From Leucoraja ocellata (taxonomy: Eukaryota): DNA of 64,000 bases. Positions within the stretch are counted from its first letter, which is position 1. The number at the start of each line of letters is the position of its first letter. The translations under genes were made by a program, and so were the position numbers. Positions 12,115 to 52,083 of this stretch are shown one piece after another. The DNA lies in the NCBI GenBank assembly GCA_036785375.1, contig JAWMAR010000898.1, positions 62,001 through 126,000 on the forward strand. The letters run 5' to 3'. The notes beneath the pieces are model-generated. The model saw only the letters and a program-made list of their open reading frames with translations. It did not search any database and had not been told where the DNA came from.

Positions 12115-12512
12115 GTGAGGGCAAGGAGCAGGAGGGAGCGAGCGAAAGTGCGGGAAGAGGAGAGGCCGGGGGTAGGGGGAGGGGAAGGAGGGAGGGAGAT
12201 GAGGAGGAGGAGGAGAGAGAGACGGGGGAGAAGGATGGAGAGGACGGGAAGAGGAGGAAGGAGGGAGGGGGAAGAGTAGTGAGGGAGAGGGGAGTGAGAG
12301 GAGGAGGAGGGAGAGGGCGTGAGGGAGGAGGAGCAGAGGACGGGAAGAGAGGGGGAAAGGAGGGAGTTGAAGAGTAGAGGGACCGATGGGGGAGGAGGAG
12401 GGAGATGAGGAGGAACAGGAAAGGGCGGGAAGAGGAGGAGGGAGGGGAAGAGAAGTGAGGGAGACGGGGAGGAGGGGGGAGTGAGAGGGGGGAAGGGCAT
12501 GAGGGAGGAAAG
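12115..12512 (+). repeat. Purine-rich (G/A) low-complexity tract in SNRPD3 intron 1
   Basis: About 400 bp almost entirely G/A, with gaggag and gggag runs and a recurring GAGGACGGGAAGAG unit. Confidence 0.9.
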
Positions 12513-17722: not shown

Positions 17723-17790
17723 ATGGATGTGAACGTGACGGACAGCGAATGGCGGACCATTGCTTTCCGGCAGAAGGTGGTGGCGCAGAT
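17723..17790 (+). CDS. MED15: MED15 exon 1, MDVNVTDSEWRTIAFRQKVVAQ(I) (KIX start)
   Basis: Homologous to human MDVSGQETDWRSTAFRQKLVSQI; aacATGG Kozak context; gtgagt donor; 68 nt. Confidence 0.93.
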
Positions 17791-18009: not shown

Positions 18010-18790
18010 TCACAACCCCCTCCCCCAGTCCCATTCACCCCCGTCCCCTTCACACCCGCCCCGTCCCCTTCATCCCCGCCCCCTTCAACCCCCCCACCCC
18101 ACCCTCCTCCGTCCCCCTCCCTCACCCGCCGGCCCCTTCACACCCCCAGTCCCTTCACTCACCCCCGTCCTCCTCACTCACCCCCCCGCACCCCTCACTC
18201 AATCCCCGGGCCCCTTCACTCAACCCCCCCCCCCCCCGTCCCCTTCACTCACCCCCGTCCCCCCACTCACTCCCGTCCCCCCACTCACTCCCCCGTACCC
18301 CTCACTCACTCCCCCGTACCCCTCACTCACTCCCCCGTACCCCTCACTCAACCCCCCCCAGCCCCTCACCCACTACCCGTCCGCTTCACTCACCCCCCCC
18401 TTCACTCTTCCCCTTCCCCCCCCTCCCCCCCGTCCACTTGACTTACCTCCCCCGTCCCCCTCACTCATCCCCCGCCCCCCCCCCCACTCACCCCCGCACC
18501 CCTCACTCACCCCCGCACCCCTCACTCAACCCCCTCGGCCACCACCCTCCCCCTTCAATCACCCCCCACCCGTCCCCTTCACCTCCCCGCACCATCCTCC
18601 CGTCCCTTCAGGTCCCCATCTTCTTCGCGTCCCCGTCCTGTCCCCTTCATCCCCCCCCCCCCCCCTGTCCCCTTCACCCCCGTCCCTTCACTCCCCCCGT
18701 TCCTTCAGTCCCCCTCCCCCTTCACTCCACCTCCCCCCCCCCCCCGTCCCCTTCACCCACCCCCCCCCCCCCCCCCCATCCCCTTCACTA
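18010..18790 (+). repeat. C-rich degenerate minisatellite (unit about CCCCGT(A/C)CCCTCACTCAC) in MED15 intron 1
   Basis: Many imperfect 17-20 bp units, e.g. tandem ctcccccgtacccctcactca copies at about 18288-18350. Confidence 0.9.
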
Positions 18791-28871: not shown

Positions 28872-28959
28872 AGACGAAGCTATGCGGACGGCTGGAACTC
28901 CTGTCACCAAATCCAGCAAAGACATGGAGAACCACGTCTTCCTGAAAGCGAAGACCAGG
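28872..28959 (+). CDS. MED15: MED15 exon 2, DEAMRTAGTPVTKSSKDMENHVFLKAKTR
   Basis: Matches human EDAMRKAG..SKSSKDMESHVFLKAKTR; tgtttgcag acceptor, gtaagt donor; 88 nt. Confidence 0.96.
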
Positions 28960-31672: not shown

Positions 31673-31724
31673 GAAGAGTATCTCAGTCTGGTGGCAAGGC
31701 TTATTCTGCATTTTCGAGACATCC
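31673..31724 (+). CDS. MED15: MED15 exon 3, EEYLSLVARLILHFRDI(H)
   Basis: Human DEYLSLVARLIIHFRDIH; tttcaacag acceptor, gtgagt donor; 52 nt. Confidence 0.96.
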
Positions 31725-34527: not shown

Positions 34528-34548
34528 ATAAGAAGACTCGAGCTGGCG
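34528..34548 (+). CDS. MED15: MED15 exon 4 (21-nt microexon), (H)KKTRAG(D)
   Basis: ttttcatag acceptor, gtaagt donor; phase 1-1 joins exons 3 and 5 in frame; corresponds to human HNKKSQASVSD. Confidence 0.8.
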
Positions 34549-39562: not shown

Positions 39563-39772
39563 ATCCAATGAACGCTTTGCAGAACTTGCAAGGTGGTCCC
39601 ACGGGGAGCTCGAGTGGGATGATGGTCACTCGTCCCCCCGGAGCCCCTTTGCCCGGAATGGCAGGTCTGGGACAGGTGAATCAATCAATATCACATCCTG
39701 GACAGCCTCAGCCGGGTACGTCTGGAATGGTGCCTCATATGCCTGGCTTCCCGCCAAGCACCCAGCAGCAGT
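39563..39772 (+). CDS. MED15: MED15 exon 5, (D)PMNALQNLQGGPTGSSSGMMVTRPPG...GQPQPGTSGMVPHMPGFPPSTQQQ
   Basis: Human DPMNALQSLTGGP...GQPPPGTSGMAPH; ccctcctag acceptor, gtgagt donor; 210 nt, phase 1-1. Confidence 0.94.
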
Positions 39773-47099: not shown

Positions 47100-47293
47100 C
47101 CCAGTTACAGATGCAGCAGATTGCTCAGCAGCAGCAGCAGCAACAGCAACAGCAGCAACAGTTCCAGGCGCAACAGGCTGTGCAACAACAGCAACAACAA
47201 CAGCAGCAGCAGCAACAGCAGCAGCAGCAACAGCAACAACAGTTCCAGGCACAGCAGCAGATAATGAAACTGCAGTTGCAGCAGCAACAACAG
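47100..47293 (+). CDS. MED15: MED15 exon 6, polyQ exon: (S)QLQMQQIA Q12 FQAQQAV Q20 FQAQQQIMKLQL Q5
   Basis: Equivalent to human TQLQLQQVAL-polyQ-FQAQQ-...IKL; atcccccag acceptor, gtactt donor; 194 nt, phase 1-0. Confidence 0.92.
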
Positions 47294-49492: not shown

Positions 49493-49708
49493 AGATTGAT
49501 GCAACAACAGCTCCAGCAGCATCAACATATCCAGCTCCAGCAGCTCCAGCAGTTGCAGTCTCAGTCTCAACCCCAGTCACAAATGGCACCACAATCCCAA
49601 CCACAGCCCATGGTTGCACAGGTACCTGGCCAGGCGGGCCAGGTTTCCATGTCTTCATCCTTGACGCAGCAGCAGCTACCACCGATCAAGCTTCAGGCCC
49701 AACAACAG
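49493..49708 (+). CDS. MED15: MED15 exon 7, RLMQQQLQQHQHIQLQQLQQLQSQSQPQSQMAPQSQPQPMVAQVPGQ...PPIKLQAQQQ
   Basis: Q/P-rich like human exon 7 (PPQSQTQPLVSQ...PPLKF); ttcacacag acceptor, gtagtc donor; 216 nt, phase 0-0. Confidence 0.85.
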
Positions 49709-51020
49709 GTAGTCATCCTTGTGTTATTAACTGGGTATCATCGTGCTGTGGACTGTGACGTTGGCATCAGGTACTGAGCTACGGGGTAGCCCTGGAGTGG
49801 AATAACTGGCATCTCTTACCTCAGTGGTGATGCAGAAAGATTTTCATTTAGTGTCAGAAGATCAGCTGTTCTGATGTACAGTTCAGGTGGAGCTTTCTTG
49901 TGTGTTAGTCTCAGCTTTACCTATGGAGTGAAAAATCCTGGGATATTACAGAACAGGAGGTCATTGGTCTACTGTATCTGTTCCTGCCCTTGAAAGCTCC
50001 CTCCAAATAGCTCTCTTATGCTTCCAATCTTTCCTTTTTATTTATTTTTTTAAATCTACTTTTTTGAAACCTTTTTCTGAATCTGATTCCACCACCCTTT
50101 CAAAAGATTAATGTCAGATCACAGCAGGTCTCTAAAATATTTATCTTGTTCTTCAAGAAATTGCAGATTCATTTCCCCTACCACTATAAACAGTTTAATC
50201 CATTTACCAAAGCCTGTTAACCCCAGTAATGTAGATGTGTTCTGTTGCAATGGCCTTTGCCCTTTTCTGTTGTAAAGTGAACAATCTTGGGTTATCTACT
50301 TAAAGCCCTACTCAAATATGCTGCATTAACTTAGTATAAAAGATACTTAAGGCATATATAATGAGTGTCAGGAAGTAGCTGATGATTTTATTTTGAGCCG
50401 AAGAGTGTGATCTCGACTCTTACATTTGAAGCCAACATAACCGATCATGGCCGCTGAGGCCCTGCATATTGCCAGAGGATCCTGCCGCTGTGAATAGCCC
50501 TGCCCATTGAATTGGCTTCATCGAGCCTCAATGTTTCAATAGCTTGTGCCATAATTGATGCAAATATGGTATTCAACATGCAATATGATCTCACCACAAA
50601 GTTATTCCAGAACATGCATATTTCAATCTTAATTTAATTTCTGTTCCTTGATTAGCTGGATTTAACTGGGAAATTCACAGCAGCGGAATTAACATTTCAA
50701 CGTTGTCAATGATCTTGGAATTAAGCAATGCTTAAGGGGTTTACACAAGGAACTGGAGATGCTGGAATCTGAAGAAGGGTCCCGACCCAAAACGTAACCT
50801 ATCCATATCCTCCTGAGATGCTGTGTGACCTCCTGAGTTACTCCAGCACTTTATATTTTGCATAAGAGCTATCTGGTCCATTGTTCTTGTGTCCTGGCTC
50901 GTAGGAGAAATTCTATTCTGCTGCCTTCCCTCATCAGACCTGTAACTGTATTTGGTACCCTTTTGGAAGGTTTTATGGGATCTGACTATTTAGATTACAT
51001 TTTGTCAAGTAAAAAGGCTA

Positions 51021-51283
51021 TGCCTCTGTCCCACTTAAGAAACCTGTATGGAAACCTCTGGAGACTTTGTGCCCCACCCAAGGTTTCCGTGCGGTTCCCG
51101 GAGGTATTTGTCAGTCTCCCTAATGGTCTAAAGTGGTGTCCGCATCTTCTATAGAGCATAGAAGAAACCACTTTCCACCATTAGGGCGACTGACAAAAAC
51201 CTCTGGGAACCGCACGGAAACCTTGGGTGGGGCACAAAGTCTCCAGAGGTTTCCGTACAGGTTTCCTAAGTGGGACAGGGGCT
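51021..51283. mobile_element. Fold-back MITE (Harbinger-like ends) with inverted arms of about 105 bp
   Basis: GCCTCTGTCCCACTT...ctaatggt / accattag...AAGTGGGACAGGGGC; the ORF track gives the same peptide (NLYGNLWRLCAPPKVSVRFPEVFVS) on both strands. Confidence 0.88.
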
Positions 51284-51747
51284 TTAGTATCATCTTGTAT
51301 CTAGTTTTTACCATAAATCGTGTTTTTATGAATTTATTACGACACAACAAGGGCTTTAGCTGGTCGTGCCTAAACATTCCCCCAATAGAGCAATCCCATC
51401 TGTCCCATTCACCACCTATCACTTCTTTGTAGTCTTGTAACTCAATCTCTCATGGGCATGTCAACTCCCCATTGATTCTTTACTTATTATCCAGCATTAA
51501 AGACAATTTGTAGCGGGCAATTAACCCACCATCACATTTTGGGACGTGGAAGGAAACTGGAGCACCTGGCAAGCTTCCTCTGGTTAAATGATCCTTCTTG
51601 GTGTTACTTCCTCCTGTACATTGATTCTGCACTGATTGACAGTTTAATTCTGAAAATGTTTCAAAGAACAGAAGTACATCAGTGGAAATGAGCAAAACTT
51701 CAGTACAAATCCAATTAATTGGCACATCTTTTATGCTTTTGTTTCAG

Positions 51748-52083
51748 GTCCGTGCGCAGTTTCCTCAGGGGCAGACGGTCCAGGCCCAAGCACAGGCCCA
51801 AGCTCAAGCTCAGGCACAAGCTCAAGCCCAGGCTCAGGCCCAAGCCCAGGCTCAAGCCCAGGCCCAAGCTCAGGCTCAGGCTCAGGCCCAGGCCCAGGCT
51901 CAAGCTCAAGCCCACGCCCAGGCCCAAGCTCAGGCCCAAGCTCAGGCCCAGGCCCAAGCTCAGGCTCAGGCCCAGGCTCAGGCCCAAGCTCAAGCCCAGG
52001 CTCAGGCCCAGGCCCAGGCTCAAGCTCAAGCTCAAGCTCAGGCACAAGCCCAGGCCCAAGCACAAATGGGAGCAGGAGGGCAG
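51748..52083 (+). CDS. MED15: MED15 exon 8, VRAQFPQGQTV-(QA)22-HA-(QA)24-QMGAGGQ
   Basis: Starts VRA and ends QM..G.Q like human exon 8 (VRAPMVV...AQMVAPGVQ); ttttgtttcag acceptor, gtaagg donor; 336 nt, phase 0-0. Confidence 0.92.

What the first reader, a model, noticed from the sequence alone, without database searches (positions are those of the whole stretch)
51781..52065. A (Gln-Ala)47 tract in MED15 exon 8, absent from human MED15 but reminiscent of yeast Gal11/Med15
Seen: 47 dipeptide units, (QA)22-HA-(QA)24-Q, inside a properly bounded in-frame exon. Codons are scrambled (CAG/CAA with GCC/GCT/GCA, never GCG), yet there is only one amino-acid change. That pattern points to selection on the protein repeat, not a fresh microsatellite. 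Established: the human exon has only a short QTAVQTAQAAQ-like stretch; budding-yeast Med15/Gal11 and Cyc8 and human TCERG1 carry QA repeats; Q/A repeats favour helical or coiled-coil and self-associating states. Inference: convergent evolution of a long QA module in the activator-binding region of a vertebrate Mediator tail subunit, potentially tuning condensate formation or activator contacts in this lineage.
Basis: partly seen in the sequence, partly recalled or inferred. Interest (0 to 1): 0.78.

Follow-up and report, generated by a model that had tools for sequence, protein, structure and literature searches.

The report
Long Gln-Ala tract in fish MED15
A cartilaginous fish carries 47 alternating glutamine-alanine pairs in its gene for the transcription co-activator MED15, and close relatives splice the same exon into RNA; the repeat likely replaces glutamine-rich sequence lost next door, which would make it a natural test of whether such floppy protein regions need a set composition rather than a set sequence.

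Summary
Both splice junctions are read in RNA of a close relative, whose exon measures 330 nt, so it is neither silent nor an assembly artefact. Unit order is as scrambled as a shuffle; duplication alone reproduced that in at most 0.4% of simulations, so many synonymous changes stand against one amino-acid change: selection on the protein is supported. No bony-vertebrate or other animal MED15 retrieved has more than 8 alternating residues, but the exon is an old Q/A-rich, length-variable segment (human 37 aa, caecilian VQAQAQAQASQM, a frog with 104 aa of QQQAA repeats). New here: exons 6-7 are about 30-70 aa shorter than in comparators, so total length (786 vs human 788) and glutamine fraction are ordinary. 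AlphaFold predicts one non-amphipathic helix. Likeness to yeast Med15 Q2, Cyc8 and TCERG1 is analogy; 'activator-binding region' is unsupported and function untested. Exon 8 of sharks and chimaeras could not be obtained, so the tract's age is open. A new variant of a known kind.

The parts
17723..17790 (+). MED15 coding exon 1 (ATG; start of KIX/Med15_N domain)
   Evidence: translation and GT donor; tblastn to paddlefish MED15
28872..28959 (+). MED15 exon 2 (KIX)
   Evidence: PF09606 match over cut-off; AG/GT
31673..31724 (+). MED15 exon 3 (KIX)
   Evidence: PF09606 match below cut-off; tblastn; AG/GT
34528..34548 (+). candidate exon 4 (21 nt, HKKTRAG)
   Evidence: best of 3 candidates by phase and likeness to bichir HKKSQGP; inferred, not checked on RNA
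39563..39772 (+). MED15 exon 5 (G/P/M-rich)
   Evidence: tblastn E 8e-14; AG/GT
47100..47293 (+). MED15 exon 6, polyQ (CAG 34 / CAA 15)
49493..49708 (+). MED15 exon 7, Q/P-rich, 72 aa
   Evidence: RNA depth about 45-55 in X23, none in the bin upstream; donor fixed by the joint
51748..52083 (+). MED15 exon 8, 336 nt, phase 0/0, model residues 284-395
   Evidence: exon 7-8 joint in 50 reads; exon 8 tail before exon 9 in 37 and 65 reads
51781..52065 (+). (QA)22-HA-(QA)24-Q tract, model residues 295-389, predicted single helix
60406..60513 (+). MED15 exon 9; exons 10-18 lie beyond the window (to about G000:C898:150270)
   Evidence: RNA depth about 50-75; tblastn; PF21539; P0121/P0226

Best explanation
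The tract is a genuine polyGln-Ala segment of MED15's glutamine-rich disordered region that likely grew by hexamer slippage from a short vertebrate QAQAQ seed in exon 8, is likely held to Gln and Ala by purifying selection, and is predicted to be a long helix that likely stands in for glutamine-rich sequence lost from exons 6-7. Shown: the sequence, the exon structure, splicing at both ends in a close relative, near-equal exon length there, the scrambled codons, the short exons 6-7 and the ordinary total length. Inferred: slippage origin, selection, and that the tract's job is generic: a soluble, helix-prone, weakly self-associating spacer between KIX and the Mediator-anchoring C-terminus that keeps the length and glutamine content of the region in the usual range. 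It would contribute to homotypic coiled-coil or condensate contacts as the human polyQ part does, not form a specific activator-binding surface.
For: Splicing: joint 49708|51748 in 50 raw reads (35 starts) at exon-7 depth of about 45-55 in run X23, and in contigs X1 and X6; exon-8 tail precedes exon 9 in 37 reads (agreement 1.0, X23) and 65 reads (0.95, X24). One 2276-nt contig of X1 carries both flanks; record coordinates give exon 8 = 330 nt. Selection: positions 1, 2, 4, 5 of all 47 hexamers invariant, 1 non-synonymous unit; order not different from 20000 shuffles (p 0.17-0.44); duplication-only models match in 0-0.4% of 1500 runs in each of 16 settings and need about 10 or more synonymous transitions to reach 5% in the most favourable settings; with 10 synonymous events P(at most 1 non-synonymous) is about 1e-5, with 5 events 0.003-0.01. 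Seed: birds/turtles VQAAQAQAAQMGASGQ, caecilians VQAQAQAQASQM. Budget: exons 6+7 136 aa/78 Q here against 168-206 aa/83-120 Q in 10 of 14 comparators that parsed; exons 6-8 together 248 aa/129 Q against 204-250 aa/94-141 Q in 9 of those 10; Q fraction of the exon 5-9 segment 0.42 against 0.37-0.47 in 30 proteins; model 786 aa against human 788. Helix: residues 8-110, mean pLDDT 91; hydrophobic moment about 0 at 100 degrees. Literature: QA-containing model peptides form coiled coils of intermediate stability (PMC4049302, section 7); the helix of the Cyc8 QA/Q tract is needed for function (PMC4543046 passages).
Against: Comparators were hand-picked, some are isoforms, and most of the 30 proteins are turtles. 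The order of events (loss first or gain first) is unknown without sharks and chimaeras. The simulation leaves out gene conversion and unequal crossing-over, which could shuffle old variants without new mutation; with only 3 independent synonymous events the test is marginal (p 0.04-0.08). AlphaFold from a single low-complexity sequence tends to give helices; strict alternation also fits a beta-strand (moment 2.6 at 180 degrees). A yeast construct lacking KIX, Q2 and Q3 complemented most phenotypes (bioRxiv 2024.05.04.592524, section 9). RNA is from relatives (organisms A, B), not from the best DNA holder (organism C), and letters inside their tracts were not seen.
Confidence: 0.5

Rival explanations
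1. Tolerated expansion: a slippage-prone hexamer grew in a permissive disordered region; selection only removes stops, frameshifts and disruptive residues, and the length has no role.
For: Exon 8 varies from 21 to 51 aa in most vertebrates and reached 104 aa in one frog; annotated isoforms without exon 8 exist in turtles and bats; yeast Q2 deletion is largely tolerated; the relatives with a similar length are close (0 differences in exons 7 and 9 for X1, 3 in 217 nt of exon 7 for X6), so conserved length is a shallow test.
Against: Mere tolerance should let in S, T, V, P, E, L and others, which are one base away; only one His is seen against many synonymous changes. Exon inclusion looks near-constitutive in the relative's RNA.
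Confidence: 0.27
2. Specific convergent module: the tract gives this lineage's MED15 a function shared with yeast Med15 Q2, Cyc8 TR2 or TCERG1, tuning activator contacts, localisation or condensates in a QA-specific, length-dependent way.
For: Strict alternation over 95 residues, longer than human TCERG1 (38 units) or yeast Q2 (aa 417-480); Cyc8 TR2 length changes expression of 89 targets; one study found at least 17 QA units needed for TCERG1 repression of C/EBPalpha (as reported in bioRxiv 2021.07.16.452643); by far the longest such array in this assembly.
Against: No amphipathic face and no hydrophobic or charged residues to form an activator-binding surface; human MED15 coiled-coil/amyloid activity was mapped to residues 141-316, upstream of exon 8 (PMC7997880); the Q-rich region alone did not form nuclear condensates (PMC8597291); another assay found the TCERG1 QA tract dispensable.
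Confidence: 0.2
3. Artefact: the tract is an assembly expansion or the exon is not used.
For: Short-read contigs of organisms B and D break inside the tract; no RNA run of the best DNA holder was laid.
Against: No duplicated 41-mer in the exon; an independent transcript contig gives 330 nt; organism B contigs hold 207 nt from the 5' side and 112 nt from the 3' side; junction reads on both sides.
Confidence: 0.03

Closest known systems
Vertebrate MED15 (ARC105/PCQAP; Pfam Med15_N PF09606, Med15_M PF21538, Med15_C PF21539)
   Same: Domains, exon order and phases, total length (786 vs 788 aa human), Q fraction of the disordered region; exon 8 begins VRA and ends QMG..GQ as in reptiles and birds.
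   Different: Exon 8 is 112 aa of strict QA alternation against 21-51 aa of mixed Q/A/V/P; exons 6-7 are shorter.
S. cerevisiae Med15/Gal11 Q2 tract (aa 417-480; bioRxiv 2024.05.04.592524, PMC8558680, PMC7094212)
   Same: Alternating Gln-Ala tract in the central disordered region of the same Mediator subunit; length varies between alleles.
   Different: About half as long and interrupted by QAA units; lies among yeast activator-binding domains that have no shown counterpart here; no intermediate animal sequence carries it, so independent origin is inferred.
Human TCERG1 38-unit quasi-tandem hexamer / (QA)n tract (bioRxiv 2021.07.16.452643; PDB 7abg_A4)
   Same: Same repeat type, similar length, CAGGCC-based, in a transcription co-regulator.
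   Different: Unrelated protein; has a central pure CAGGCC run, which this tract lacks (longest pure run 3).
Yeast Cyc8/Ssn6 TR2 (PMC4543046)
   Same: QA array with helix-dependent, length-dependent effects on target genes: the best model for how a QA tract can work.
   Different: Co-repressor; QA array is followed directly by polyQ; function shown there, untested here.
Rhinophrynus dorsalis MED15 exon 8 (P0008)
   Same: Independent expansion of the same exon to about 100 aa, 94% Q+A.
   Different: Unit is QQQAA/QQQA, not QA; exons 6-7 are not shortened.

Membership tests
MED15 (ARC105) orthologue | N-terminal KIX (Med15_N) domain | tested here: met
   PF09606 30.7 bits over cut-off 24.1 at exon 2
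MED15 (ARC105) orthologue | Med15_M and Med15_C domains at the C-terminus | tested here: met
   P0226 E 7.5e-49 and 1.2e-37; PF21539 on the same contig; human chain 7emf_O E 5e-193
MED15 (ARC105) orthologue | Intact, spliced, single locus | tested here: met
   no stop in exons 1-9 model; only C898 passes the cut-off (best candidates only); junction reads in relatives
polyQA repeat (PMC4049302) | Alternating Gln-Ala run of four or more in a translated protein | tested here: met
   47 units; exon spliced in frame; translation itself inferred
polyQA repeat (PMC4049302) | Helical / coiled-coil structure | tested here: inconclusive
   helix predicted from a single sequence; no heptad amphipathy; no experiment
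Yeast Med15 Q2 tract (by descent) | Tract shared through intermediate lineages | tested here: not met
   longest alternation 8 residues in 200 proteins of 430 aa or more and 4 residues in 150 distant representatives
Yeast Med15 Q2 tract (by descent) | Position among activator-binding domains ABD1-3 | not testable with these tools
   no vertebrate equivalent of these domains was mapped in the passages read
Fresh hexamer microsatellite | Long pure run or block duplications at DNA level | tested here: not met
   longest pure run 3, repeated blocks at chance level; contrast pure CAGGCC/CAGGCA arrays elsewhere

The most novel reading that the evidence does not exclude
A cartilaginous-fish lineage swapped about a third of MED15's polyglutamine region for a 14-nm Gln-Ala helix while keeping overall length and glutamine content, arriving independently at the same repeat that yeast Med15 uses. 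The Mediator tail would then be selected for a glutamine and helix budget, with QA as a recurrent, less aggregation-prone solution.
Probability: 0.22. Interest if true: 0.62.

Novelty: new variant of a known kind. Interest (0 to 1): 0.38.

Why it matters
How the glutamine-rich region of MED15 works, by exact sequence or by bulk composition, is an open question for coactivator disordered regions. This allele keeps length and glutamine fraction while changing the pattern completely, so a swap into human or yeast MED15 tests the question directly. It also adds a vertebrate case to the short list of long QA tracts in transcription co-regulators (TCERG1, Cyc8, yeast Med15). If the tract is only a tolerated expansion it is a curiosity and an annotation note.

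Tried and rejected
Getting exon 8 of sharks or chimaeras failed: three homologue searches, one representative search and one cluster look-up gave only C-terminal cartilaginous-fish pieces, a 93-aa Rhincodon fragment and a Callorhinchus model (P0225) that lacks the exon 6-10 region; absence from these lists says nothing about sharks. Alignments A1 and A3 of single exons were misaligned, and A2 was not used. Complex prediction of two copies of exon 8 gave no verdict. The ESM Atlas gave no usable hit. No Pfam family matches exon 8. The look-up of sequencing runs listed no holder on record as RNA; RNA evidence comes only from the lays. Earlier findings of the scan: nothing relevant. The model had the exon-2 boundary off by one base (one stop); corrected; the segment measured starts at exon 5 and is unaffected. 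A hidden Q-rich exon between exons 6 and 7 was looked for in the three plus frames and not found. Rejected: absence of GCG as a sign of selection (CpG avoidance suffices); a canonical heptad coiled coil (no amphipathy). Paper searches without a description of this tract: MED15+glutamine-alanine (yeast papers only), MED15+shark+polyglutamine, Leucoraja+Mediator+MED15 (none), MED15 with cartilaginous-fish terms (none of the 20 listed of 2454 holds MED15), polyQA+Mediator+evolution. Supplements were not read; Figs S2/S4 of PMC7997880 (vertebrate MED15 orthologues) could bear on novelty.

Full report
Observation. The exon at 51748-52083 has an AG acceptor and GT donor, 336 nt, phase 0 at both ends, and reads VRAQFPQGQTV-(QA)22-HA-(QA)24-Q-MGAGGQ; codon counts are CAG 26, CAA 21, CAC 1, GCC 22, GCT 21, GCA 4, GCG 0. 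The window lies in a 3.44-Gb assembly. Of 73 matches to a 35-base QA-coding pattern (GCG excluded by the pattern) at 18 places in the assembly, 36 are this tract. Of 8 other places translated, two scrambled arrays (11 and 7 units) sit in zinc-finger homeobox frames and six are pure CAGGCC or CAGGCA runs of 6-9 units without a recognisable gene around them. The reversed control pattern matched 217 times, so short arrays are common; the length is what stands out.

The gene. PF09606 matches exons 2-3 and PF21539 matches only this contig over its cut-off. Nine exons in the window translate to 431 aa without a stop, and with the downstream part the model is 786 aa (exon 4 is a candidate); human MED15 is 788 aa. 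The C-terminal protein clusters at 90% with Callorhinchus milii and Rhincodon typus entries, which places the organism among cartilaginous fishes; I did not resolve it further. The tract is residues 295-389.

Is it spliced, and is the length real? Reads were laid on the two flanks, not on the tract. In run X23 (RNA, organism A, about 5% of the run read) 50 reads from 35 starts join exon 7 to exon 8 at GT..AG, at an exon-7 depth of about 45-55; contigs of X1 (organism A) and X6 (organism B) show the same joint. Before exon 9 the loose ends read the exon-8 tail in 37 reads of X23 (agreement 1.0) and 65 of X24 (0.95). One X1 contig (2276 nt, depth 31.5) was laid in both calls: window 49705 is record 1986 and window 60404 is record 1654, which leaves 330 nt for exon 8, one unit less than here. 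X6 has 207 nt of exon 8 on one contig and 112 nt on another, breaking inside. Unnamed transcript-type proteins also begin MGAGGQ-MMSSM (P0226, 48 contigs). Limits: these are close relatives (0 differences in exons 7 and 9 for X1; 3 in 217 nt for X6), the letters inside their tracts were not seen, and no RNA of organism C, the best DNA holder, was laid.

Selection. Positions 1, 2, 4 and 5 of all 47 hexamers are invariant; positions 3 and 6 are split about evenly. Repeated blocks and adjacent identical units are at shuffle level (p 0.17-0.44; 7 adjacent against 9.5 expected). Growth by tandem duplication from an already mixed seed, with no new mutation, matched this in 0-0.4% of 1500 runs in each of 16 settings; about 10 synonymous transitions were needed to reach 5% in the most favourable settings, against 18% for a pure shuffle. 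Ten synonymous events against at most one non-synonymous has a neutral probability near 1e-5; five give 0.003-0.01; three give 0.04-0.08. So protein-level constraint is supported unless conversion shuffled old variants, which I did not model. This shows constraint on residues, not on length.

Relatives. In 200 MED15 proteins of 430 aa or more (redundant, rich in isoforms of turtles, birds and mammals, with some fishes and amphibians) the longest perfect Q/A alternation is 8 residues; 111 of 200 were parsed for exon 8, three of them wrongly, giving 21-51 aa except one. In 150 distant representatives the longest is 4. The exon is nonetheless Q/A-rich across vertebrates: VRAQLVQQQQAAAAVQAAQAQAAQMGASGQ in birds and turtles, VQAQAQAQASQM in caecilians, and 104 aa of QQQAA/QQQA repeats in Rhinophrynus. 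The tract is thus an expansion of an old seed at a site that has expanded at least twice.

No net gain. Exons 6+7 give 136 aa with 78 Q here, against 168-206 aa with 83-120 Q in the 10 of 14 hand-picked comparators that parsed; exons 6-8 together are 248 aa with 129 Q, against 204-250 aa with 94-141 Q in nine and 299 aa with 169 Q in Rhinophrynus. The segment from exon 5 to exon 9 is 330 aa at Q fraction 0.42, against 273-383 aa and 0.37-0.47 in 30 proteins of 760 aa or more, mostly turtles. No Q-rich exon hides between exons 6 and 7. The tract therefore re-patterns the region more than it extends it.

Structure and mechanism. AlphaFold2 on the single sequence gives one helix, residues 8-110, mean pLDDT 91, pTM 0.54; low-complexity input makes this weak. 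Alternation gives no hydrophobic moment at 100 degrees and a maximal one at 180 degrees: a helix with no stripe, or a two-faced beta-strand. From papers: model peptides with polyQA form coiled coils of intermediate stability (PMC4049302, passages and section 7); Cyc8 TR2 length tunes 89 targets and prolines in it abolish function (PMC4543046, passages); human MED15 residues 141-316 dimerise as a coiled coil and convert to amyloid, and this part is the least conserved in sequence among vertebrates (PMC7997880, abstract and passages); Med15 condensates need the Q-rich region plus a downstream hydrophobic motif (PMC8597291, abstract and passages); yeast Q2 is a QA tract at 417-480, and a construct lacking KIX, Q2 and Q3 complements most phenotypes (bioRxiv 2024.05.04.592524, passages and section 9; bioRxiv 2022.12.29.522246, passages; PMC8558680 and PMC7094212, passages); TCERG1 has 38 units with conflicting functional data (bioRxiv 2021.07.16.452643, passages; sequence seen). 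PMC4770211 (passages) added nothing specific. I commit to a generic role, a helix-prone Q-bearing spacer and weak self-association segment that replaces lost polyQ (0.5), over tolerated expansion (0.27), a QA-specific module (0.2) and artefact (0.03).

Known and new. It is a member of MED15 and of the polyQA repeat class. It works like the yeast Q2, Cyc8 and TCERG1 tracts at most by analogy; descent from yeast Q2 failed the test on intermediate lineages. I found no description of this tract in five paper searches of a library that lacks most subscription journals; supplements were not read. Verdict: real, apparently undescribed, a new variant of a known kind; interest 0.38.

Noticed in passing
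L027:3-2699 (G000:C223) and L016:3-2828 (G000:C98), minus strand: The next longest codon-scrambled QA arrays (11 and 7 units) lie in two zinc-finger homeobox open frames (Pfam homeodomain and C2H2), by recall ZFHX3/ZFHX4-like. C545 carries the same matches as C98 and may be a duplicate haplotig.
   Followed up: partly
P0008 (Rhinophrynus dorsalis MED15): Independent 104-aa QQQAA/QQQA expansion in the same exon 8.
   Followed up: partly
P0229 (Logan, 2 contigs): An isoform joining exon 8 directly to exon 10 (MGAGGQ|VNNT), skipping exon 9.
   Followed up: no
window 51781-52065: The four GCA units are units 2, 6, 44 and 47, all near the ends, as if the ends are older and the middle grew later.
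   Followed up: no
window 51030-51290 and 50768-50852: An element with long inverted ends and a short high-copy repeat in intron 7; both draw very high depth in all four runs.
   Followed up: no
P0225 (Callorhinchus milii): The database model lacks the Q-rich exons and carries unrelated sequence there, probably a mis-prediction.
   Followed up: no
window 12174-12507 and 18022-18789: Purine-rich and C-rich minisatellite arrays upstream of and just inside MED15 intron 1.
   Followed up: no
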